Positions 15,105 through 46,483 of a stretch of 64,000 nucleotides of DNA are shown here, in pieces. Within the stretch, counting starts at the first letter, position 1. Every line of letters starts with the position of its first letter. The notes under the pieces were generated by a model that was not told the origin of the DNA, searched no databases, and was given only the letters and a program-made list of their open reading frames with translations. Source of the DNA: Escherichia phage phiWec179; the sequence record LC739533.1, one strand, 5' to 3'. The position numbers were made by a program, and so were the translations under genes.

Positions 15105-17183
15105 TTATCTTCGACGAGGAGTACTTACAGTAGTGAAATGCCTGGAGTTCATGTTACTGTACCCAGTAGGTGCATTTGTTGTTGTAGGTATCGCTACAGC
15201 CTTGTGTGCCGTCTCTTTCGCCAGAGTGTTGAAGCAAGATGCTGCGGCATCTGGAAGGTCATCTTTAAGCATTGCTGTAGATCGTTCACCGTTAAAAGAT
15301 TCCAATTCTTTATAAAAGTGATTCAAAGTTTCAATGTTAGGAAATGAATCTTCTACGATATAAACAAAACCATTCTGACAGGCACTACTGAACGGCATGA
15401 AACGTTGAAGTTTCTTTTTGTTGCCTGGCATTGCGTCGGGTTTAACAACAAAACCTTCAACAATAAGTTTCTTAGCTGATTCCGTATATTCAATGAGTCC
15501 AGCACCAGACGGGTCTTTTGGAAGAACGATCTGAACATCTGGTCCATCAATCTTAGCCTGTTGGAGGATCAGGTTATCCCTGTCACCAGGTAAGCGTCGG
15601 AATCTTCCGAAAACTTTACTCTTCTCGTCTATAGCGTCGTAATCATAATCCCCGAAGATATAAATGTTCCCGTTTAGGTCTTTACCCATCTTAACCGATG
15701 CTGTATAGTCGGGATAACGATAACGTTCACTTGGAACGGATACAGCTTTATCCCATGCACGCATATACTTCATGTTGTTAGGAACATCTTTGTATTCTAT
15801 CTTGTGAAGCCATTCACGTTGGAAGAATGATTCCTCTTGAATACGGGCAAACCAACAACCATCCAGAAGCTGTGCTCGCTTGATCGCTGTCTGCGATTTA
15901 AGAGAAGCCAGGTATTTCGGGTTAAGGCGAATCAGTTCAGGGTTATCAAAGATCGTACCGCCGATAAACACAAACGTTTGAGGTTCGATCGTAACAATCT
16001 CACCAGTGTTTGGGTTCTCCATGAAACAGTTTTCAGGATACTTCTCTTTAAGTTCCTCTGCTGTGTCGGCAAATACAGGCTCATCATTTACAATAATGAA
16101 GTAGGTTTGTTTACCACACATATCTTCACGAGGATAACCGCCTTCGTCAAGATAAGGTAACACCCAGTTCAGTACCCAGCTATCCGCATCGGGGTTACAG
16201 GTACAGAGCATGAAAGATGTTTCTGACTCGGAACGCATACGACCGAGAAGATAAAGCATCTCGTACTGGGTGAAATGGGTGAGTTCGTCAAAACCAACCA
16301 TACTGTACTGTGTACCCTGATGGTTAGTCTCGGCTGTAACGTTATCGTTCTCCAGATGGTCAAACTTCAAAGTACCACCGTTAGTGGCCTCAAAGATAAT
16401 GTCCATCGTACTTTCTTTTACGTGTGGTTGTAAAGGAAGATACAAACGTTTAGCTTCTGTAAACAAACCCCCTGGCTTACGGTGTGCAGTAGTGTTCTTA
16501 CGGAATAAGATACCACCGAACAAAGGATCTTTATAGGCAAACTTAAGGGCTTTTAGCAGAAGCAGACGAGACTTGCCGCTATTGCCAGTAACGAAGCAGT
16601 GATTGCCCCGTCTAAGGACAATATAGCTACTTGGAGTTTCAAAGCAATATTTCTTATCATCAGATGTAATAACCTCGTGTATTTTTAAATAAGTGTTTTG
16701 TTTGCCTGGGATGTTAAATGGAACGCGCTTACCGAACGGATCTTCAATGTATCCTTTCAGTGGTGCTCCTGCTTGTTGCAGAGCAATAAGATCTCCCACA
16801 GCAATCTCAAAATGTTTTTTGGATTTCTTTTTCTTGTAAAAGACGAAACGATGCTCCATACTCAACTCTTGGAACACTCCTGCACCATTAGTGATTCGGT
16901 ACAGGTTGTCATCTTTCATATCGTATTCTACGAAGTAAGGTGTGACCAACTCTAAGCGTTTTCTCTTAGGATTATACTGGTAGATATCTTCTCCACTGTA
17001 CTGACTTATTTGTTTCCAACCATCACGGGTAAGATACTCTGTTTCAGCAGATACACAACCTGCGGCACCACCGTAAATCATAACTTCCGGCATTAGATCC
17101 ATTGCCAGCGTCTGTTTACCTGGTTGAGCCTTTACTTCGATATCAGCGCCAGCTAAACTGCCAGCCGCTTTTTTCTTAGCCAC
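15105..17183 (-). CDS. terL: Terminase large subunit, intein-containing precursor
   Basis: N-terminal YGGAAG ... SGKS split Walker A, Walker B-like VGFDELTHF, nuclease-type C-terminal region; GTG start with AAGGAGG RBS. Confidence 0.8.
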   Translation of the reverse strand: MAKKKAAGSLAGADIEVKAQPGKQTLAMDLMPEVMIYGGAAGCVSAETEYLTRDGWKQISQYSGEDIYQYNPKRKRLELVTPYFVEYDMKDDNLYRITNGAGVFQELSMEHRFVFYKKKKSKKHFEIAVGDLIALQQAGAPLKGYIEDPFGKRVPFNIPGKQNTYLKIHEVITSDDKKYCFETPSSYIVLRRGNHCFVTGNSGKSRLLLLKALKFAYKDPLFGGILFRKNTTAHRKPGGLFTEAKRLYLPLQPHVKESTMDIIFEATNGGTLKFDHLENDNVTAETNHQGTQYSMVGFDELTHFTQYEMLYLLGRMRSESETSFMLCTCNPDADSWVLNWVLPYLDEGGYPREDMCGKQTYFIIVNDEPVFADTAEELKEKYPENCFMENPNTGEIVTIEPQTFVFIGGTIFDNPELIRLNPKYLASLKSQTAIKRAQLLDGCWFARIQEESFFQREWLHKIEYKDVPNNMKYMRAWDKAVSVPSERYRYPDYTASVKMGKDLNGNIYIFGDYDYDAIDEKSKVFGRFRRLPGDRDNLILQQAKIDGPDVQIVLPKDPSGAGLIEYTESAKKLIVEGFVVKPDAMPGNKKKLQRFMPFSSACQNGFVYIVEDSFPNIETLNHFYKELESFNGERSTAMLKDDLPDAAASCFNTLAKETAHKAVAIPTTTNAPTGYSNMNSRHFTTVSTPRRR
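16581..17057 (-). mobile_element. Mini-intein inserted in terminase P-loop (159 aa)
   Basis: Insert begins with Cys (CVSAETEY...), ends ...CFVTGN followed by Ser; removing it restores YGGAAGSGKS. No homing endonuclease domain evident. Confidence 0.6.
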
Positions 17184-17192
17184 TTCTCCTCC

Positions 17193-17519
17193 TTACTTAC
17201 TGATAATCCCTTTCTCTTGCAGAGCCTTAATGTAGTTTTGCAGACCGATTACTTTATTACGATCTTGACTCCAGAGAACATTGTTTGTGGTTCCGTTGTC
17301 AACAACTTCTGAACGAGAAACACCTTTCGCCACTTGTTGATCCGTATACGGCACTGGCTCACTTACACCCTCCATAAGAGAGGATTCTGGAGCTTTGACT
17401 TCTTGTACCGCAACAGCTTTACATTCATCAATTAGAATCGGGGAGGCTTTTGTTGAGGATGCGCAACCCGTCATCATTAGGGCCGAAGCAAGACATAGAC
17501 CCAGTAGTAGTTTTTGCAT
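17193..17519 (-). CDS. Outer-membrane lipoprotein, o-spanin-like
   Basis: Signal peptide MQKLLLGLCLASALMMTG-C lipobox; start overlaps 3' end of i-spanin-like ORF in another frame. Confidence 0.45.
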   Translation of the reverse strand: MQKLLLGLCLASALMMTGCASSTKASPILIDECKAVAVQEVKAPESSLMEGVSEPVPYTDQQVAKGVSRSEVVDNGTTNNVLWSQDRNKVIGLQNYIKALQEKGIISK

Positions 17520-17835
17520 AGTTTGTTTTCTCCTCGTTTATCTTCTTTTCCTTGTTTGCTAAATCTTTTCTCAATTGAGCATTCTTGGCAGAGAGTGAAG
17601 CGATTTGGTTATTAAGAGCGAGACGTTCATCATCTGCTTTCTTTTGAAGAACATCAAAATCTTGTTTTGCTTTTGCTTGTTGTTGCTGATAGATAGTTAC
17701 TTGGTGCTGTTCTCCAGCAGTGTAACCATTATCATATAAAGCCTTTCCGCCGAAGTATAAACCAGCTAAAAGGGCTACTAACAGAAGAATAACGTAAAAC
17801 CATTTACTCTTCAGAATCATTGGTATCAGGTTCAT
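17428..17835 (-). CDS. i-spanin-like protein (N-terminal TM plus coiled coil)
   Basis: N-terminal hydrophobic helix then periplasmic coiled coil (QQQQAKAKQDFDVLQKKADDERLALNNQIASLSAKNAQLRKDL); overlapped by lipoprotein gene. Confidence 0.45.
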   Translation of the reverse strand: MNLIPMILKSKWFYVILLLVALLAGLYFGGKALYDNGYTAGEQHQVTIYQQQQAKAKQDFDVLQKKADDERLALNNQIASLSAKNAQLRKDLANKEKKINEEKTNYAKTTTGSMSCFGPNDDGLRILNKSLPDSN

Positions 17836-18100
17836 CTTTAAATCTCACTTTCGGTAAGGATGGAGAGTTATTCACTACCTTCTTCACTTCCATCGGTTGG
17901 GCTTCCGCAAGAATCTCTTCCCACGTCTTCTCGATCATCATCTAATTCGTCCTCAAGATCCCATTGACGGGAATAATCATTCTTTCTGTCGCGGTGGACA
18001 GAAGATTTGTTAAAATCATTCTTAACTACAAAGTTGCGCATATTTTATCCTCCTCAATATTGATCTTATCACAAAACATATACACAATGCAAGCCCTAAA

Positions 18101-18181: not shown

Positions 18182-18472
18182 TTAAATTACAATTTTCTTA
18201 GGCTGTTCTTCCACAACGGTAGGCGTTTCTTCCTCCATTGCTTCATAATGTTCTTCCAACCAGTCTTCGACTTGCTCTTTAATGGCTTTCGCTGCTTGGA
18301 ATCGGAGAGGTTTTGCTGCTTCGTTGTCATACACAAGTTCAACGATGTATTTCATGGCTGCGAGATAGTTCTCGGCAAACAATTCCTTCACTGTTGCTTG
18401 TGCTGCATCCATAGCGTAAATTTGTTGCATTTCTGCGGTAGGTCGTCCACGACCACGTTTAAGTTTAGGCAT
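18182..18472 (-). CDS. Small basic protein (possible DNA-binding / small terminase candidate)
   Basis: 96 aa; N-terminal KLKRGRGRPT basic motif; position upstream of terminase. Confidence 0.35.
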   Translation of the reverse strand: MPKLKRGRGRPTAEMQQIYAMDAAQATVKELFAENYLAAMKYIVELVYDNEAAKPLRFQAAKAIKEQVEDWLEEHYEAMEEETPTVVEEQPKKIVI

Positions 18473-18562
18473 GTGTATTCCTCCTACAATTTATCGTATC
18501 ATAAAAATATTCTTGTGTCAAGTTTTACTTTTACATGTACAACTGACATACCAATAACCCAG

Positions 18563-18590
18563 AAACAAAAAAGCCTCCACGAGGGAGGCT
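18563..18590 (-). terminator. Rho-independent terminator
   Basis: GCCTCC-ACGAG-GGAGGC hairpin followed by TTTTTTGTTTC on minus strand. Confidence 0.5.
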
Positions 18591-18672
18591 CTATGCGAGT
18601 TAGGGTTAACATGTGTCCCTAATATCATTTTAACATTTCAGTATAAAAATGTCTTTAGGATAATTCTTATAA

Positions 18673-18943
18673 TTAAGGTCTGTTGATTACCTTAACAGTT
18701 TGTCCTTTGTCGTTCATCAGATAGGCTGATTCAGTTTTGTGAACAAAGATAACACGTTCACCTGCGATAACAGAGGCTACCACGCCATCTGGTCGATCAT
18801 AACCTTCCCAATGATACTGAATAATTACGTCATCCTCTAAGCAGTAAAAGAATTCTTCTTCATTTACATTGAAAGGGACGGTATTGTAAATCTTTACTTC
18901 ATCTTCTTTAGAAAATTTACGGATTGTTTTTAACGTATACATG
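18673..18943 (-). CDS. Hypothetical protein
   Basis: About 90 aa from ATG at 18943; the longer listed ORF to 19170 runs through tRNA genes and is rejected. Confidence 0.4.
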
Positions 18944-19049
18944 ATGTGTCCTATTAAGTATTTAGTGTTTAGTGGGTTGTGCGTTTTAGGAGTCGCACCC
19001 CTCCCTCTTAGAAGGAACCAGGCAAGGTCTTCAAAGATACCGCTGGCGC

Positions 19050-19128
19050 GATATTTGGAGGCGGGAATCGGATTCGAACCGATGATCTCCAGCATATGAA
19101 ACTGGCGAGGACGACCAAACTCCTCTAT
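19050..19128 (-). tRNA. tRNA with anticodon CAU (Met or Ile2)
   Basis: Hand-folded: acceptor AGCGGGA/TCCCGCC (1:72 mismatch), anticodon stem CCAGT/GCTGG, loop TTCATAT, T-arm ATCGG-TTCGAAT-CCGAT, encoded CCA. Confidence 0.6.
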
Positions 19129-19134
19129 CCCGCT

Positions 19135-19205
19135 ATTAGGTGTCCCGTGCTGGATTCGAACCAGCATCACAATAAGTTGTGGATCTCTTATCCTGTAAGT
19201 CTAAC
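19135..19205 (-). tRNA. tRNA-like element, non-canonical (no standard anticodon arm found)
   Basis: Perfect T-arm GCTGG-TTCGAAT-CCAGC and near-complementary acceptor strands, but the middle forms a CACAA/TTGTG tetraloop hairpin instead; no encoded CCA. Confidence 0.3.
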
Positions 19206-19206
19206 G

Positions 19207-19280
19207 GGAAACTGGTTGTTTCGACAAGAATCGAACTTGTGTCTCACGATTATCAGTCGTGGGTTCTACCATTGAACTAC
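19207..19280 (-). tRNA. tRNA-Ile (GAU)
   Basis: Acceptor TGTTTCG/CGAAACA, D-arm GTTC-AATGGTA-GAAC, anticodon arm CACGA-CTGATAA-TCGTG, T-arm ACAAG-TTCGATT-CTTGT, encoded ACCA. Confidence 0.75.
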
Positions 19281-19286
19281 GAAACA

Positions 19287-29116: not shown

Positions 29117-29305
29117 ATGTTGATTTTAACAGTGTATATCTTGTTGTCAGTATTGGCTGTATGCTGTATGTTCCTTAGCTGTTGCAAAGATAAGACACTT
29201 TTAGTCTCTGTAGCAAAAACTATAGATGCGATAATGGCGGGTATCGGGTACGCAGCAGTGATCTACATTTTCTGTTTTTACTTTGTGGCTGAATGGGTTA
29301 ATTAA
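29117..29305 (+). CDS. Small membrane protein
   Basis: 62 aa, almost entirely hydrophobic helices. Confidence 0.45.
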   Translation: MLILTVYILLSVLAVCCMFLSCCKDKTLLVSVAKTIDAIMAGIGYAAVIYIFCFYFVAEWVN

Positions 29306-29314
29306 GGGGGATTT

Positions 29315-29503
29315 ATGGGTGTTGAAGTTTTTCTGATTCTTTTGTTGCTTTCTATTGTGGCTTGTGGTATTATTATGGCTTCTACATTCCCATTAAACAC
29401 TTGGTGGCGAAAATTAAGTCTGATGCTTATATACTGTGCAGCAGGTGCACAAATGGGTTCGGTTGTTATCTACTTGACTGAACTCGCAAAAAATTATTTT
29501 TAA
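29315..29503 (+). CDS. Small membrane protein
   Basis: 62 aa, two predicted hydrophobic helices. Confidence 0.45.
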   Translation: MGVEVFLILLLLSIVACGIIMASTFPLNTWWRKLSLMLIYCAAGAQMGSVVIYLTELAKNYF

Positions 29504-42283: not shown

Positions 42284-43276
42284 ATGCGCTATCTGGTAAC
42301 AGGTGGTCTTGGTTTTATTGGGAGCGCCGTTGTGCGCTCTCTTTGTCAAGATCCTAATAACGAAGTTTTTGTCATTGATAAAATGGGCTACGCAGCCGAT
42401 ATTGAAAATGTAGGGGATATCACTCACGCCAAACTAAGCATGACGGATTTGGCAAACGAAGCACAGGTCAAAAGTTTGGTGGTAGAATGCAACCCTGATT
42501 TCATTATTCACTTAGCGGCAGAGAGTCATGTGGACAACTCTATCAAAAATCCACGAGCTTTCATCGACTCCAATATCATCGGTACATATAATTTACTGGA
42601 AGCTGCGAGACTACTCCCAAGGAATAAGCTGAAGATGTTTGTACACGTCTCCACAGACGAAGTGTACGGCGATATGGCAGACTCTGGCGCTCCCTTTACC
42701 GAAGAGACAGCATATACTCCTTCAAGCCCGTACAGCGCGTCCAAGGCGGCTTCTGATCATCTTGTGAAAGCTTGGCACCGTACTTATGACTTGCCTGTAG
42801 TGATAACTAATTGCTCCAATAATTTTGGACCTTACCAATACCCTGAAAAATTGATTCCAAAAGTAATCACAAGCATCTTGACGAACAAAGAAATCCCAGT
42901 GTATGGTAAAGGTGATCAGGTACGAGACTGGCTTTTTGTTGAGGACCATGCACGAGCTATTCTTCAGGTAGCTTCTGGCGGCGAACCTGGACAAACTTAC
43001 AACGTAGGTACACGTAATCCTAAAACCAATATGGAGATCATCTATATGATTTGTGATTACATGGATGCCGTACACCCGCAAAGTGGAACCTACCCCTCTT
43101 CAAGTTTAATAACTTTTGTTGAAGATCGTAAAGGACATGACTTGCATTATGAAATCAACCCTGCTAAGATTGAATCTGAACTGGGTTGGAGTGCAAACTC
43201 CACATTTGAACAAGACCTTTACTCTACGATAGAGTGGTATTTAAACAACCCTCAATGGTGGAGAGAAAAGATTTAA
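42284..43276 (+). CDS. rmlB: dTDP-glucose 4,6-dehydratase
   Basis: TGGLGFIGS Rossmann motif, [10 protein letters not shown] (YxxxK) catalytic motif. Confidence 0.85.
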
Positions 43277-43284
43277 GGAGGGTT

Positions 43285-44163
43285 ATGAAAGGTATTATTT
43301 TGGCTGGAGGAAGTGGAACCCGCCTACATCCAGTAACACGCAGTGTGAGCAAGCAATTGCTCCCTGTGTATGACAAACCTATGATTTATTATCCTTTATC
43401 AGTCTTGATGTTGGCAGATATTAAGGATATCTTAATCATCACAACCCCAGGCGATCAGGAAGATTTTGAGTATCTTCTTGGAGATGGATCTATGTTTGGG
43501 ATAAAGATCACTTACGCAATGCAGTCTGAACCACGAGGTCTTGCAGATGCTTTCATCATTGGTAAAGATTTCATTGGGGAAGATTCTGTTGCCCTTATTT
43601 TAGGGGATAACTTGTTCTTCGGACAAAGTTTCGGAAAACTTCTTATCCAAGCCAGCGAAATGGTGGATGTTTGGGGTGGAGCTTGTATCTTCGGGTATCT
43701 GGTGAAAGATCCTGAACGATTCGGTGTTGTTGAGTTTGGAAGTAATCGCCAAGCTATCTCTATTGAAGAGAAACCGGAACATCCTAAATCAGACTATGCT
43801 GTCACGGGTTTGTATTTCTATGACAACTCTGTTGTTCAACGTGCATTGGAAGTAACCCCTTCCGAGCGTGGAGAACTGGAGATCACAGATATCAATCGCA
43901 GCTACCTCGAAGACAGGAAGTTACAAGTTGAAGTTCTTGGAAGAGGATTCACTTGGTTGGATACAGGGACACACGCCAGTCTAATGGAAGCAGGTCAATT
44001 CGTGCAGACTATTGAGAACTGCCAAGGATTGAAGATTGCGTGCCTGGAAGAGATCGCTTTCAAAAAAGGGTGGATTTCTTTAGAGACTTTGGTGTATCAT
44101 GGCAACTCATTGAAGAAAACAGAGTACGGGCAATATTTGTTAAAATTAGCGGAGGGTAAATGA
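43285..44163 (+). CDS. rmlA: Glucose-1-phosphate thymidylyltransferase
   Basis: [17 protein letters not shown] signature; start set to ATG 43285 after RBS AAGGAGGG. Confidence 0.85.
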
Positions 44164-44720
44164 AAATAAAAGAATTAAGTATTCCTGGTCTGGTTGTCTT
44201 TAAACCTCAAGTTTACAAAGATGATCGTGGTTACTTCACGGAGACGTTTAACGAGAAGATTTACGAAGAGGTTATTGGCAAACAAACGTTTGTTCAGGAT
44301 AACCATTCATTCTCTACTTTAGGTGTTCTTCGCGGAATGCACTTTCAAGTAAACAATCCGCAAGGTAAGCTTGTACGTTGCACACGAGGTGAAGTTTTTG
44401 ACGTGGCTGTAGATCTTCGTGAAGGTAGTCCAACCTTCGGACAATGGGAAGGTGTGATTCTTAGTGGGCGTAACAATAAACAGTTTTGGATTCCACCTGG
44501 CTTTGCACATGGTTTTGTTGTAACCTCTTATGAAGCCAACTTTGAATACAAGTGCACCAACTACTACGATCCGGCATCTGAACGTAGTTTGTTGTGGAAC
44601 GATCCTACTGTGAATATTGATTGGGGTTTTGATATGATTTTCAATGATGAGAATTTTGTACCTATCATTTCGGAAAAGGATGCACAAGCTAAAACACTGA
44701 AGGAGCTTATGGAATCATGA
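44160..44720 (+). CDS. rmlC: dTDP-4-dehydrorhamnose 3,5-epimerase
   Basis: Cupin-type RmlC pattern ([11 protein letters not shown] ... GMHFQ ... [10 protein letters not shown]). Confidence 0.85.
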
Positions 44721-45559
44721 AAACATATTTAGTATTGGGTGGTAATGGTCAATTAGGTCAGGCACTGCGTAAAGTGGTGCCGGAGAATGTGACTTTGGTG
44801 TATCCAGAAAAGCGTGTAGATATCACCAGTTTCGAAGCTGTAAGAAAAGCGATCATGGACACCCCAAATATTAACGGTGTTATCAACTGTGCGGCATACA
44901 CTGCGGTGGACAAAGCAGAGACAGATGTTGATGCAGCTATGGCTGTAAATTTACACGGGGCAGCTAATATTGCTGCCTTCTGTAAGGCTTGGGATATTGA
45001 CATGGTGCATATTTCTACTGACTATGTGTTCAACAGCGATAAACCGTTGTTCCATCAGGATGAACCCAACCCTATCAATGTTTACGGGTTATCTAAAAGT
45101 TTGGGTGAAGCTGCTGTTCGTGGTATCTACCATAAAGCTTTTATTATCCGCACGGCTTCTGTGTATAGCGAGTTTGGTAACAACTTCCTGAAGACTATGG
45201 TGTCTCGTTACAACGATGGTCAAAGAGACTTCTCGGTAGTTGCAGATCAAACATCTCGACCAACTTATGCCCCAGATTTGGCTAAGATGATTTTCCAAGT
45301 GTTGGAAACAGGATATAACACCCGTACTTTGCATTACGCTGGGAACATCACTGTTTCGTGGCACCAGTTCGCAAAAATGATATTGACACGTATGCCTGAA
45401 TCTGTTATTATACACCCGACCTCTGCTGCAACCTATAATTCGGCAGCGATGCGACCAGCAAAGTCTATACTAATTACGTCTGGTTGGAACGAACCTTCAA
45501 GCGTCGGACAAGGTATTGAAGAATCTTTAGCAGTATTACTTAATAAGGAGAGAGCATGA
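44717..45559 (+). CDS. rmlD: dTDP-4-dehydrorhamnose reductase
   Basis: LVLGGNGQLG Rossmann motif; ATGA-coupled to rmlC. Confidence 0.8.
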   Translation: MKTYLVLGGNGQLGQALRKVVPENVTLVYPEKRVDITSFEAVRKAIMDTPNINGVINCAAYTAVDKAETDVDAAMAVNLHGAANIAAFCKAWDIDMVHISTDYVFNSDKPLFHQDEPNPINVYGLSKSLGEAAVRGIYHKAFIIRTASVYSEFGNNFLKTMVSRYNDGQRDFSVVADQTSRPTYAPDLAKMIFQVLETGYNTRTLHYAGNITVSWHQFAKMILTRMPESVIIHPTSAATYNSAAMRPAKSILITSGWNEPSSVGQGIEESLAVLLNKERA

Positions 45560-45979: not shown

Positions 45980-46483
45980 ATGGCTAAAAAAGTAGTAGAT
46001 GAGTTTGACATGTTGGCTGTTGATGAAGGACTGAAGCTGACTGTTTACCCAGACACCTTGGGATATTGGACAGTCGGCATTGGACACCTCTTAACTAAAA
46101 AGAAAGATAAGGCGGAAGCTATTCGTATTCTGGATGCTCTTGTTGGTCGCAAGACTAACGGAGTTATCACAGAGAAAGAAGCCCGTGCTATCTTTGCTGA
46201 CGATGTTGAAAAGGCGAAAAAACAGATTAAAAACAGTTCCATTCTTGCCCCAATTTATGATAAGGTGAGTGAAACCCGTAAACTGGCAATCATCAATATG
46301 GTGTTCCAGTTGGGGTTAACAGGAACGGAAGGCTTTAAAAATAGCTTGACTTTAATCAGTAATTCGTACTATACTCAAGCTGGTAAAAACATGAGAGCCA
46401 GTAAATGGTACTCTCAAACGCCAAACCGTGCAGAACGAGTAATCAAGGTTCTAACATCTGGGACTCTTGATTCTTACAACTAA
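45980..46483 (+). CDS. Endolysin, T4 lysozyme-like (GH24)
   Basis: Collinear with T4 lysozyme: DEGLKLTVYPDTLGYWTVGIGHLLTK ... NMVFQLG ... WYSQTPNRAERV. Confidence 0.85.
   Translation: MAKKVVDEFDMLAVDEGLKLTVYPDTLGYWTVGIGHLLTKKKDKAEAIRILDALVGRKTNGVITEKEARAIFADDVEKAKKQIKNSSILAPIYDKVSETRKLAIINMVFQLGLTGTEGFKNSLTLISNSYYTQAGKNMRASKWYSQTPNRAERVIKVLTSGTLDSYN

What the first reader, a model, noticed from the sequence alone, without database searches (positions are those of the whole stretch)
17193..17835. Overlapping spanin-like gene pair just upstream of the terminase, 28 kb from the endolysin
A TM plus coiled-coil protein (i-spanin-like) overlaps in another frame with a lipobox-bearing lipoprotein (o-spanin-like), as in the lambda Rz/Rz1 arrangement. 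Their placement next to packaging genes rather than the lysozyme implies the lysis functions are dispersed. The two small membrane proteins at 29117-29503 are holin candidates.
Basis: partly seen in the sequence, partly recalled or inferred. Interest (0 to 1): 0.35.

Follow-up and report, generated by a model that had tools for sequence, protein, structure and literature searches.

The report
Overlapped phage spanin gene pair
These two overlapping genes are an ordinary, already catalogued phage "spanin" pair (an inner-membrane protein plus an outer-membrane lipoprotein that break the host's outer membrane at lysis), in the position typical of this phage group.

Summary
On the minus strand, a 135-aa protein (17428-17835) has an N-terminal transmembrane helix and a long heptad-patterned helix. 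It overlaps by 92 nt, in the +1 frame, a 108-aa protein (17193-17519) with a lipoprotein signal (lipobox MTGC, Cys19, Ala at +2). Both match PHROG families annotated "Rz-like spanin" (E 1e-24 and 4e-16). Both are conserved in about 135 related phage genomes, and the overlap shows dual-frame purifying selection.

The window is a Phapecoctavirus-like E. coli myophage, 100% identical to phiWec181 over the stretch compared. The phi92/phAPEC8 spanins are already listed as an "overlapped" two-component family by Kongari et al. 2018. They are annotated i-/o-spanin in EmilieFrey, ESCO5 and BME3.

The position directly upstream of terL is conserved across Stephanstirmvirinae and also occurs in Cronobacter phage GAP31 (Vequintavirinae). 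The GH24 endolysin is at 45980-46483 on the opposite strand, 28.1 kb away, so the lysis genes are dispersed. T4-like phages are already described this way.

Two corrections. The architecture is overlapped, as catalogued for P2, not embedded as in lambda. The two "holin candidates" have no supporting evidence.

Verdict: already known, low interest. Aside: terL carries an intein-like 159-aa insertion inside its Walker A motif.

The parts
17428..17835 (-). i-spanin gene (135 aa): N-terminal membrane anchor, long periplasmic helix, and a conserved non-helical C-terminal tail with a single Cys116
   Evidence: ORF. PHROG 4297 'Rz-like spanin', E 1.1e-24, plus eight further PHROG families annotated Rz-like spanin. 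AlphaFold2 helix over residues 11-109. Heptad pattern. Cys116 is invariant in 13 homologues.
17746..17802 (-). Region encoding the i-spanin transmembrane segment (about aa 12-30, WFYVILLLVALLAGLYFGG)
   Evidence: Kyte-Doolittle 19-residue mean up to 2.17. A hydrophobic segment is present at the same place in all homologues.
17193..17519 (-). o-spanin gene (108 aa precursor, about 90 aa mature): outer-membrane lipoprotein with a second conserved Cys33 and a C-terminal helix
   Evidence: ORF. PHROG 1267 'Rz-like spanin', E 4.4e-16. tblastn finds it full-length in 136 phage records. G18, C19 and C33 are invariant. AlphaFold2 helix over residues 73-102 with pLDDT of about 90.
17463..17519 (-). Region encoding the lipoprotein signal peptide and lipobox (MQKLLLGLCLASALMMTGC)
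   Evidence: The ATG and the lipobox are conserved in ten loci. Gene callers often start this gene at Met15 or Met16, which removes the signal: clusters of 93-95 aa.
17428..17519 (-). 92-nt dual-coding overlap: the i-spanin C-terminal tail in one frame and the o-spanin signal peptide in the +1 frame
   Evidence: The overlap is 80-95 nt in all ten loci. Mean pairwise diversity is 0.23 here against 0.47 and 0.40 in the single-coding parts. i-frame third-position diversity is 0.21 against 0.61.
17530..17535 (-). Shine-Dalgarno-like GAGGAG, 10 nt upstream of the o-spanin ATG and inside the i-spanin gene
   Evidence: Read from the sequence. It is weaker in relatives (GAGGA, AGAGAG).
15105..17183 (-). 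Context: terminase large subunit gene, starting 9 nt after the o-spanin stop (TAAGGAGGAGAAGTG); the portal, head and tail genes follow
   Evidence: PHROG 979, E 1e-213, and Pfam Terminase_6N. Junction sequence. Downstream genes are named in the PsgM04F annotation.
18493..18521 (-). Context: sigma-70-like consensus match (TTGACA-17-TACGAT), preceded by a terminator-like hairpin at 18570-18592; a possible start of the transcription unit that includes the spanins
   Evidence: This is a consensus match only, and the number of such matches in the region is not above the shuffle expectation.
45980..46483 (+). Endolysin (GH24 T4-type lysozyme, 167 aa), the functional partner of the spanins; 28.1 kb away on the opposite strand
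   Evidence: Pfam PF00959, E 2.1e-11, above the curated cutoff. PHROG 7 endolysin, E 2e-21. The syntenic gene in EmilieFrey is annotated endolysin.

Best explanation
The two genes encode a two-component spanin of the 'overlapped' architecture. It belongs to the phi92/phAPEC8 spanin family of Stephanstirmvirinae myophages.

Inferred mechanism, by analogy with lambda Rz/Rz1. The 135-aa i-spanin inserts into the inner membrane through its N-terminal helix and projects a roughly 80-residue coiled-coil-type helix into the periplasm. The 108-aa o-spanin is exported, lipid-modified at Cys19, cleaved by signal peptidase II, and sorted by Lol to the inner leaflet of the outer membrane because it lacks Asp at +2. 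The two proteins bind through their C-terminal parts, probably as disulfide-linked homodimers using the single conserved periplasmic cysteines (i-spanin C116, o-spanin C33). The complex spans the periplasm through the peptidoglycan mesh. Once the holin-released GH24 endolysin (45980-46483) destroys the peptidoglycan, the complexes are free to move and collapse, and they fuse the inner and outer membranes. This removes the last barrier to virion release.

The pair appears to be expressed with the late packaging and morphogenesis genes, since it sits directly 5' of terL.

Shown here: the ORFs, the membrane and lipoprotein signals, the helical heptad pattern, family membership, conservation and dual-frame constraint, synteny, and the distance to the endolysin. 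Inferred only: lipoprotein processing, complex formation, disulfide linkage, membrane fusion and late expression.
For: - Family matches: PHROG 4297 (E 1.1e-24) and PHROG 1267 (E 4.4e-16), both annotated Rz-like spanin.
- Signals: a transmembrane segment at about residues 12-30 and lipobox MTGC/Cys19 with Ala at +2. The lipoprotein signal is nearly unique in the window, 2 of 1531 candidate starts.
- Structure: i-spanin helix over residues 11-109 with a heptad a/d pattern. The o-spanin has a confident C-terminal helix and weak fold matches to other annotated o-spanins, such as Erwinia phage pEp_SNUABM_01 (probability 0.99, E 0.08).
- Conservation: the pair is found in 136 and 133 phage records. 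The start codon, lipobox, Cys33 and Cys116 are invariant.
- Dual coding: both frames are under constraint in the overlap.
- Existing annotation: i-spanin/o-spanin in EmilieFrey, Rz-like spanin/o-spanin in ESCO5, o-spanin | i-spanin in BME3.
- Literature: Kongari et al. 2018 list (phi92, phAPEC8) under 'Overlapped' in both the i-spanin and the o-spanin family tables (PMC6139136).
- Older synteny: a distantly homologous pair (E 4e-8 and 2e-7) sits directly upstream of terL in Cronobacter phage GAP31, Vequintavirinae.
- No other candidate: nothing spanin-like flanks the endolysin.
Against: - The literature searches run here turned up no experimental test of any member of this family; the assignment rests on signals and homology to other predicted spanins.
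- There is no match to the Pfam Rz or Rz1 families.
- Matches to the P2 LysB/LysC NCBIfam models are far below threshold: 17.9 against 92.75 bits and 14 against 27 bits.
- The mature o-spanin is long (about 90 aa), has only 4% proline and is partly folded. From my own knowledge, the short mature lambda Rz1 is proline-rich.
- The i-spanin model shows one uninterrupted helix. From my own knowledge, lambda Rz has two helical domains with a hinge.
- The distant GAP31 homologues lack the periplasmic cysteines, so the disulfide step cannot be general.
Confidence: 0.92

Rival explanations
1. The lipoprotein is a superinfection-exclusion or receptor-masking lipoprotein, in the manner of T5 Llp or the Cor proteins. 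The transmembrane protein is then an unrelated membrane protein, and the true outer-membrane disruptor lies elsewhere in the roughly 90 kb of genome outside the window.
For: Small phage lipoproteins can have this role (established knowledge of T5 Llp). The o-spanin is longer and more structured than lambda Rz1. No experiment on this family turned up in the literature searches.
Against: - Both proteins hit PHROG families annotated as spanins.
- The lipoprotein is always paired, in an overlapping or abutting arrangement, with a transmembrane plus coiled-coil partner, across two phage subfamilies.
- From established knowledge, T5 llp lies next to the receptor-binding protein gene; this gene is not next to tail-fibre genes and heads the late packaging cluster.
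- Spanin curators list the family.
Confidence: 0.04
2. The 108-aa reading frame is not a gene. It is a chance open frame overlapping and following the i-spanin gene, and the phage uses only the transmembrane protein or something else entirely.
For: Many GenBank records of this group do not annotate it, truncate it, or call it hypothetical. Metagenomic gene callers start it at Met15/16, which removes the signal peptide.
Against: - It is conserved full-length at 31-95% identity in 136 records.
- In the non-overlapping part, third-position diversity (0.58) exceeds first- and second-position diversity (0.36, 0.27), as expected for a coding frame.
- The ATG, lipobox and Cys33 are invariant.
- Missing or mis-started o-spanin genes are a documented annotation artefact: 196 missing and 64 with a wrong start among 528 systems (PMC6139136).
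Confidence: 0.01
3. The pair has a packaging- or morphogenesis-linked membrane role, for example anchoring assembly to the membrane, rather than lysis. The basis is its position between a small gene once annotated as terS and terL.
For: It lies immediately upstream of terL, with the terL ribosome-binding site abutting the o-spanin stop. The 96-aa gene at 18182-18472 is annotated 'terminase, small subunit' in phAPEC8_ev052. The spanin-terL synteny also holds in GAP31.
Against: No family or fold evidence links either protein to packaging. An outer-membrane lipoprotein cannot contact cytoplasmic packaging machinery. In KP13-16 the homologous pair is not followed by terL. Spanins in lambda are also late-operon genes (established knowledge), so linkage to late genes is expected.
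Confidence: 0.03

Closest known systems
phi92 / phAPEC8 two-component spanin family (Kongari et al. 2018, BMC Bioinformatics 19:326, Tables 3 and 4, 'Overlapped' class)
   Same: The genes are homologous. The i-spanin is 62% identical to phAPEC8 and 53% to phi92 over residues 33-134. The o-spanin is 71% and 67% identical. The overlap is 92-95 nt in all, and the position directly upstream of terL is the same.
   Different: Nothing of substance. This phage (phiWec181-type) is a divergent lineage within the group, and its own GenBank record calls both genes 'hypothetical protein'.
Phage P2 LysB / LysC (listed under 'Overlapped' in Kongari et al. 2018)
   Same: The gene architecture is the same: the o-spanin gene starts inside the 3' end of the i-spanin gene in another frame and extends beyond it. 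The protein topologies are the same. There are faint sub-threshold profile matches to TIGR03495 LysB and NF038368 LysC.
   Different: This pair is not a member of those families: 17.9 against 92.75 bits and 14 against 27 bits. From my own knowledge, the P2 genes lie in a lysis cassette with the holin and endolysin; here the pair is 28 kb from the endolysin.
Lambda Rz / Rz1
   Same: The predicted function and topology are the same: a type II inner-membrane protein with a helical periplasmic domain plus an outer-membrane lipoprotein. The second gene is in the +1 frame, and periplasmic cysteines are available for intermolecular disulfides.
   Different: Lambda Rz1 is fully embedded in Rz; here the genes only overlap by 92 nt. 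There is no Pfam Rz/Rz1 match. The mature o-spanin here is about 90 aa with 4% proline and a 30-residue helix; from my own knowledge, mature lambda Rz1 is short and proline-rich. The i-spanin here models as one continuous helix.
Seunavirus (PVP-SE1 / GAP31) spanins, 'Separated' class, and the T4 spanin genes
   Same: The GAP31 pair is distantly homologous (E 4e-8 and 2e-7) and also lies directly upstream of terL. T4-like genomes are noted for unclustered lysis genes (PMC6139136).
   Different: The GAP31 genes overlap by only 4 nt and lack the periplasmic cysteines. No comparison with the T4 spanin proteins was made here.

Membership tests
Two-component spanin (functional class, criteria of Kongari et al. 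2018) | i-spanin: a small protein with a single N-terminal transmembrane domain and a periplasmic C-terminal domain | tested here: met
   One hydrophobic segment at about residues 12-30, Kyte-Doolittle mean 2.17. The rest is hydrophilic and helical.
Two-component spanin (functional class, criteria of Kongari et al. 2018) | o-spanin: an outer-membrane lipoprotein signal, meaning a signal peptide and a lipobox ending in Cys | tested here: met
   MQKLLLGLCLASALMMTGC|AS. The lipobox MTGC fits the relaxed pattern [ILMFTVA][^REKD][GAS]C that I wrote for the scan, and +2 is Ala; from established knowledge Asp at +2 causes inner-membrane retention. Conserved in all homologues.
Two-component spanin (functional class, criteria of Kongari et al. 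2018) | The two genes are adjacent, overlapping or nested on the same strand | tested here: met
   92-nt overlap in the +1 frame; 80-95 nt in ten loci.
Two-component spanin (functional class, criteria of Kongari et al. 2018) | Periplasmic alpha-helical or coiled-coil domain in the i-spanin | tested here: met
   AlphaFold2 helix over 11-109, pLDDT 84-95 for 31-100. Heptad a/d occupancy reached by 62 of 5000 shuffles.
Two-component spanin (functional class, criteria of Kongari et al. 2018) | Lipid modification and signal peptidase II processing of the o-spanin | not testable with these tools
   Needs globomycin sensitivity, palmitate labelling, or a C19S mutant.
Two-component spanin (functional class, criteria of Kongari et al. 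2018) | Needed for outer-membrane disruption; complements a lambda Rz/Rz1 defect | not testable with these tools
   Needs genetic tests. The literature searches run here found no experimental test of this family.
phi92/phAPEC8 spanin family (Kongari 2018: at least 40% identity over at least 40% of the periplasmic domain) | Sequence identity threshold to family members, for both components | tested here: met
   i-spanin 61.8% to phAPEC8 and 52.9% to phi92 over residues 33-134. o-spanin 71.3% and 66.7% over the full length.
'Overlapped' architecture class | The o-spanin gene starts within the i-spanin gene and ends beyond it | tested here: met
   The o-spanin start at 17519 lies inside the i-spanin gene (17428-17835). 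The o-spanin stop at 17193 lies 235 nt beyond the i-spanin stop.
Lambda Rz / Rz1 (Pfam families; 'embedded' architecture) | Match to the Pfam Rz and Rz1 models | tested here: not met
   No Pfam hit at E <= 0.01 apart from a sub-threshold DUF3450 match.
Lambda Rz / Rz1 (Pfam families; 'embedded' architecture) | The o-spanin gene lies wholly within the i-spanin gene | tested here: not met
   Only 92 of the 327 nt lie within the i-spanin gene.
P2 LysB / LysC (NCBIfam TIGR03495 / NF038368) | Score above the curated cutoff | tested here: not met
   17.9 bits against a cutoff of 92.75, and 14.0 bits against 27.
   Only PHROGs of unknown function and no Pfam hit. The genes are 16 kb from the endolysin and 11 kb from the spanins. 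The first is limited to five near-identical genomes. The syntenic EmilieFrey gene is annotated hypothetical.
   Read by eye, each 62-aa translation has two hydrophobic stretches; no hydropathy calculation was run on them. From my own knowledge holins usually end in a charged tail; these end in ...VAEWVN and ...ELAKNYF. Small membrane proteins are common in phage early regions.

The most novel reading that the evidence does not exclude
The Stephanstirmvirinae and Seunavirus spanins could form a mechanistically distinct subtype. The i-spanin would be a single uninterrupted helix ending in a conserved non-helical Cys-bearing tail. That tail would dock onto a folded o-spanin with a helical C-terminus, rather than onto a proline-rich unstructured Rz1-type peptide. 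The pair's ancient, fixed position at the head of the packaging operon would reflect co-regulation of outer-membrane disruption with DNA packaging. The holin for this subfamily also remains unidentified.
Probability: 0.12. Interest if true: 0.3.

Novelty: already known. Interest (0 to 1): 0.08.

Why it matters
It matters little beyond annotation. The record that matches the window exactly (phiWec181) and many relatives label both genes 'hypothetical', and gene callers often truncate the o-spanin so that its lipoprotein signal is lost. Correct calling therefore improves lysis-gene annotation of a phage group that is often isolated for therapy and biocontrol. The case is also a clean worked example of dual-frame purifying selection in a short gene overlap. 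It shows that the spanin-terL linkage predates the split between Stephanstirmvirinae and Vequintavirinae, with overlapped and separated versions among homologues. It opens no new question about lysis, because dispersed lysis genes are already described for T4-like phages. The unidentified holin of this subfamily is the only real gap.

Tried and rejected
- Pfam scan of both proteins found no Rz/Rz1 family hit.
- NCBIfam gave only sub-threshold LysB/LysC matches, so I rejected membership of the P2 and lambda sequence families.
- The large protein-cluster search added only a few close relatives, mostly with truncated o-spanin starts, and no wider family.
- Foldseek of the o-spanin model against viral structures found close relatives plus only weak matches (E at or above 0.08) to other o-spanins. 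I treat this as supportive but not decisive.
- The heptad test on the o-spanin C-terminal helix was not significant: 1792 of 5000 shuffles did as well.
- The promoter and terminator scan gave consensus matches no more numerous than in shuffles, so the transcription-unit proposal stays an inference.
- For the holin candidates, the PHROG, Pfam and tblastn searches gave no holin evidence.
- I considered the 45-aa ORF at 17804-17941, which overlaps the i-spanin start. It has no family match. Comparable small ORFs are annotated in some relatives, in phi92 with 'Weak Prodigal statistics'. I left it unassigned.
- For the intein-like insertion in terL, the Pfam, NCBIfam and PDB sequence searches all came back empty. 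Only the boundary residues and the insertion-free homologues support the idea.
- My first lipobox scan used too strict a hydrophobicity threshold and missed even the o-spanin. I repeated it with a looser threshold.
Full report
**What is at the coordinates.** Two ORFs lie on the minus strand: 17428-17835 (135 aa) and 17193-17519 (108 aa). They share 92 nt, and the downstream ORF is in the +1 frame relative to the upstream one.

The 135-aa protein has one strongly hydrophobic segment, WFYVILLLVALLAGLYFGG at about residues 12-30 (Kyte-Doolittle 19-residue mean up to 2.17), and a single cysteine, C116.

The 108-aa protein begins MQKLLLGLCLASALMMTGC|ASS. That is a basic N-terminus, a hydrophobic core, the lipobox MTGC and Cys19. 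Position +2 is Ala, so an Asp inner-membrane retention signal is absent. A GAGGAG Shine-Dalgarno-like motif lies 10 nt upstream of its ATG. Its TAA stop runs straight into the ribosome-binding site and GTG start of the next gene (TAAGGAGGAGAAGTG).

That next gene, 15105-17183, is the terminase large subunit: PHROG 979 at E 1e-213, and Pfam Terminase_6N.

**Is it more than chance?** Four lines of evidence say yes.
- I scanned 1531 candidate starts with ORFs of at least 45 aa in all six frames of the window using a simple lipoprotein-signal filter. Only this ORF and one antisense ORF inside terL pass (a first attempt with too strict a threshold, missed both).
- tblastn finds the o-spanin full-length in 136 phage records and the i-spanin in 133.
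- In ten loci spanning 31-95% protein identity, several features are conserved. These are the o-spanin ATG, signal peptide, lipobox and second cysteine (C33), and the i-spanin membrane segment, its cysteine (C116) and its tail motif YAKTxxGSMSCFxPNDDGLxIINKSFP.
- In a nucleotide alignment of seven non-redundant loci, the single-coding parts show the usual excess of third-position change. For codon positions 1/2/3, the i-only part gives 0.46/0.35/0.61 and the o-only part 0.36/0.27/0.58. In the overlap, overall diversity halves to 0.23. The i-frame third position drops to 0.21, and the most variable position (0.30) is the third position of the o-frame. Both frames are therefore under purifying selection.

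**What the proteins are.** The 135-aa protein matches PHROG 4297 'Rz-like spanin' (E 1.1e-24) and eight further PHROG families with the same annotation. The 108-aa protein matches PHROG 1267 'Rz-like spanin' (E 4.4e-16).

Pfam has no Rz or Rz1 match. The NCBIfam models for P2 LysB and LysC are touched only far below threshold, at 17.9 against 92.75 bits and 14 against 27 bits.

AlphaFold2 on a 13-sequence alignment models the i-spanin as one helix from residue 11 to 109, with pLDDT 84-95 for 31-100, followed by a low-confidence tail. Seven of the ten LIVMF residues in 56-105 fall on the a/d positions of one heptad register (F60, L74, I78, L81, L88, L92, I99); 62 of 5000 shuffles do as well.

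The o-spanin model has a disordered N-terminal part and a confident C-terminal helix over residues 73-102. The mature protein is about 90 aa with 4% proline. From my own knowledge this is unlike the short, proline-rich mature lambda Rz1. Foldseek against viral models returns close relatives and only weak matches to other annotated o-spanins.

**Where the window comes from, and what is already known.** The region is 100% identical to Escherichia phages phiWec181 and phiWec186 and about 78% identical to phAPEC8-type phages (Stephanstirmvirinae, Phapecoctavirus).

In relatives the upstream gene is annotated 'Rz-like spanin' or 'Rz spanin'. The pair is annotated i-spanin/o-spanin in EmilieFrey from the BASEL collection, Rz-like spanin/o-spanin in ESCO5, and o-spanin | i-spanin in BME3. 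The BME3 paper describes the pair in its text (PMC12210895). The BASEL authors state that they annotated spanins with the SpaninDataBase tool (PMC8594841).

That database's paper is Kongari et al. 2018. It lists (phi92, phAPEC8) as a two-member family under 'Overlapped' in both the i-spanin and the o-spanin tables (PMC6139136). The same paper documents that o-spanin genes are often missing (196 of 528) or mis-started (64 of 528) in annotations. I see the same problem here. Protein clusters in the large database are 93-95 aa because they start at Met15/16 and lose the signal peptide, and several GenBank records truncate or omit the gene.

**Genome context.** The order on the minus strand is as follows:
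- a tRNA cluster of ten tRNAs at 19056-21113;
- a terminator-like hairpin and a sigma-70-like consensus match at 18493-18592 (consensus matches only);
- a 96-aa gene, a 57-aa DUF7230-like gene, the i-spanin, the o-spanin, then terL;
- portal, head and tail genes, as named in the PsgM04F annotation.

So the pair heads the late packaging and morphogenesis cluster.

The only lysozyme in the window is a 167-aa GH24 enzyme at 45980-46483 on the plus strand: Pfam PF00959 at E 2e-11, above cutoff, and PHROG 7 endolysin. It lies between a glutaredoxin-like gene and a PhoH-like gene, 28,145 nt from the pair. Its EmilieFrey counterpart is annotated endolysin in the same syntenic position.

The layout is a conserved feature of the subfamily. 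It also extends further. In Cronobacter phage GAP31 (Vequintavirinae, Seunavirus), two 'Rz-like spanin' genes sit directly upstream of terL. They are distant homologues of the pair here (BLASTP E 4e-8 and 2e-7). They overlap by only 4 nt and lack the periplasmic cysteines. Kongari et al. place GAP31 and PVP-SE1 in the 'Separated' class and note that lysis genes of T4-like phages are not clustered. Dispersal is therefore not new.

**Mechanism.** The following is inferred from established knowledge of lambda Rz/Rz1. The i-spanin is anchored in the inner membrane. The o-spanin is lipidated at Cys19 and sorted to the outer membrane. The two bind through their C-terminal regions to span the periplasm, probably as disulfide-linked homodimers through C116 and C33. 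When the endolysin removes the peptidoglycan, they fuse the two membranes. None of these steps can be tested with sequence tools. The literature searches I ran turned up no experimental test of this family.

- The architecture is 'overlapped', the class under which Kongari et al. also list P2. It is not the lambda arrangement, in which Rz1 is embedded within Rz.
- The 'holin candidates' at 29117-29305 and 29315-29503 are 62-aa proteins, each with two hydrophobic stretches by eye. They hit only PHROGs of unknown function and no Pfam family. They lie between a DNA ligase gene and the next gene of the DNA-metabolism cluster (PsgM04F names that region's genes). The first is confined to five near-identical genomes. 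The second is more widespread, but at about 30% identity, and it is never annotated as a holin. The BASEL record leaves that position 'hypothetical'. The BME3 paper mentions two small class II-like candidates 'located further away' from the endolysins, without evidence. Holin status cannot be decided here.

**Rivals.**
- A chance ORF is excluded.
- A superinfection-exclusion lipoprotein is unlikely. The lipoprotein is always paired with a transmembrane plus coiled-coil partner across two subfamilies, and both proteins match spanin families.
- A packaging-linked role has no support beyond position. In KP13-16 the homologous pair is not followed by terL.

**Noticed in passing.** TerL carries a 159-aa insertion (aa 43-201, window 16581-17057) exactly inside its Walker A motif: MIYGGAAG|C...TGN|SGKSRLLL. 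Insertion-free homologues read MIYGGAAGSGKSRLLL (Aeromonas phage vB_AdhM_DL) and LIIGGAAGSGKSYLL (GAP31). Distant TerL homologues align only from about residue 202 onward.

The first residue is Cys, the last is Asn, the next is Ser, and there is an SMEH motif resembling intein block B. These are the boundary features of an intein. However, no Pfam, NCBIfam or PDB sequence match supports this, so it remains a lead.

**Verdict.** The feature is an already catalogued spanin family in its usual place, and interest is low.

Noticed in passing
window 16581-17057 (-), inside terL (15105-17183): A 159-aa insertion (TerL aa 43-201) sits exactly inside the Walker A motif: GGAAG|C...TGN|SGKS. Insertion-free homologues read MIYGGAAGSGKSRLLL (Aeromonas phage vB_AdhM_DL) and LIIGGAAGSGKSYLL (GAP31). 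Cys first, Asn last, Ser at +1 and an SMEH block-B-like motif suggest a mini-intein. It is present in about 138 Stephanstirmvirinae records. No Pfam, NCBIfam or PDB sequence hit supports it.
   Followed up: partly
L014 (Cronobacter phage GAP31, NC_019400.1) 87-778, compared with window 17193-17835: A distantly homologous spanin pair (E 4e-8 and 2e-7) lies directly upstream of terL in a Vequintavirinae phage. Its genes overlap by only 4 nt and lack periplasmic cysteines. Overlapped and separated architectures therefore occur among homologues, and the spanin-terL synteny is shared with a second subfamily.
   Followed up: partly
window 18182-18472 (-): A 96-aa gene two genes upstream of the i-spanin is annotated 'terminase, small subunit' in phAPEC8_ev052 but hypothetical elsewhere. 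It matches PHROG 3330 (unknown function) and no Pfam or NCBIfam family. If it is terS, the spanins lie between terS and terL.
   Followed up: partly
window 17193-17519 (-) and protein clusters P0001-P0005: Automatic gene callers start the o-spanin at Met15/16, giving 93-95 aa and removing the signal peptide. Several GenBank records omit the gene or call it hypothetical. This is the annotation artefact described by Kongari et al..
   Followed up: yes
window 19056-21113 (-): A cluster of ten tRNA genes (Met, Ile, Pro, Gln, Gly, Thr, Tyr, Ser, Arg, Met) lies just upstream of the spanin/terL cluster on the same strand. The 165-aa 'ORF' at 18673-19170 overlaps tRNA-Met (19056-19134) and looks spurious.
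   Followed up: no
window 43234-45559 (+): Three genes lie just upstream of the glutaredoxin and endolysin genes. By comparison with the EmilieFrey annotation they are a glucose-1-phosphate thymidylyltransferase, a dTDP-4-dehydrorhamnose 3,5-epimerase and a dTDP-4-dehydrorhamnose reductase; EmilieFrey also has the 4,6-dehydratase next to them. A dTDP-rhamnose pathway is an unusual cargo for a phage.
   Followed up: no
window 29117-29305 and 29315-29503 (+): Two adjacent 62-aa proteins, each with two hydrophobic stretches, follow the DNA ligase gene. The first is restricted to five near-identical genomes. The second is found in 91 records at about 30% identity. Their function is unknown and there is no holin evidence.
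   Followed up: partly
window 17804-17941 (-): A 45-aa ORF overlaps both the DUF7230-like gene and the start of the i-spanin gene. It has no family match. Comparable small ORFs are annotated in phi92 (gp117, 'Weak Prodigal statistics'), KP13-26 and ESCO5. It is probably not a gene.
   Followed up: no
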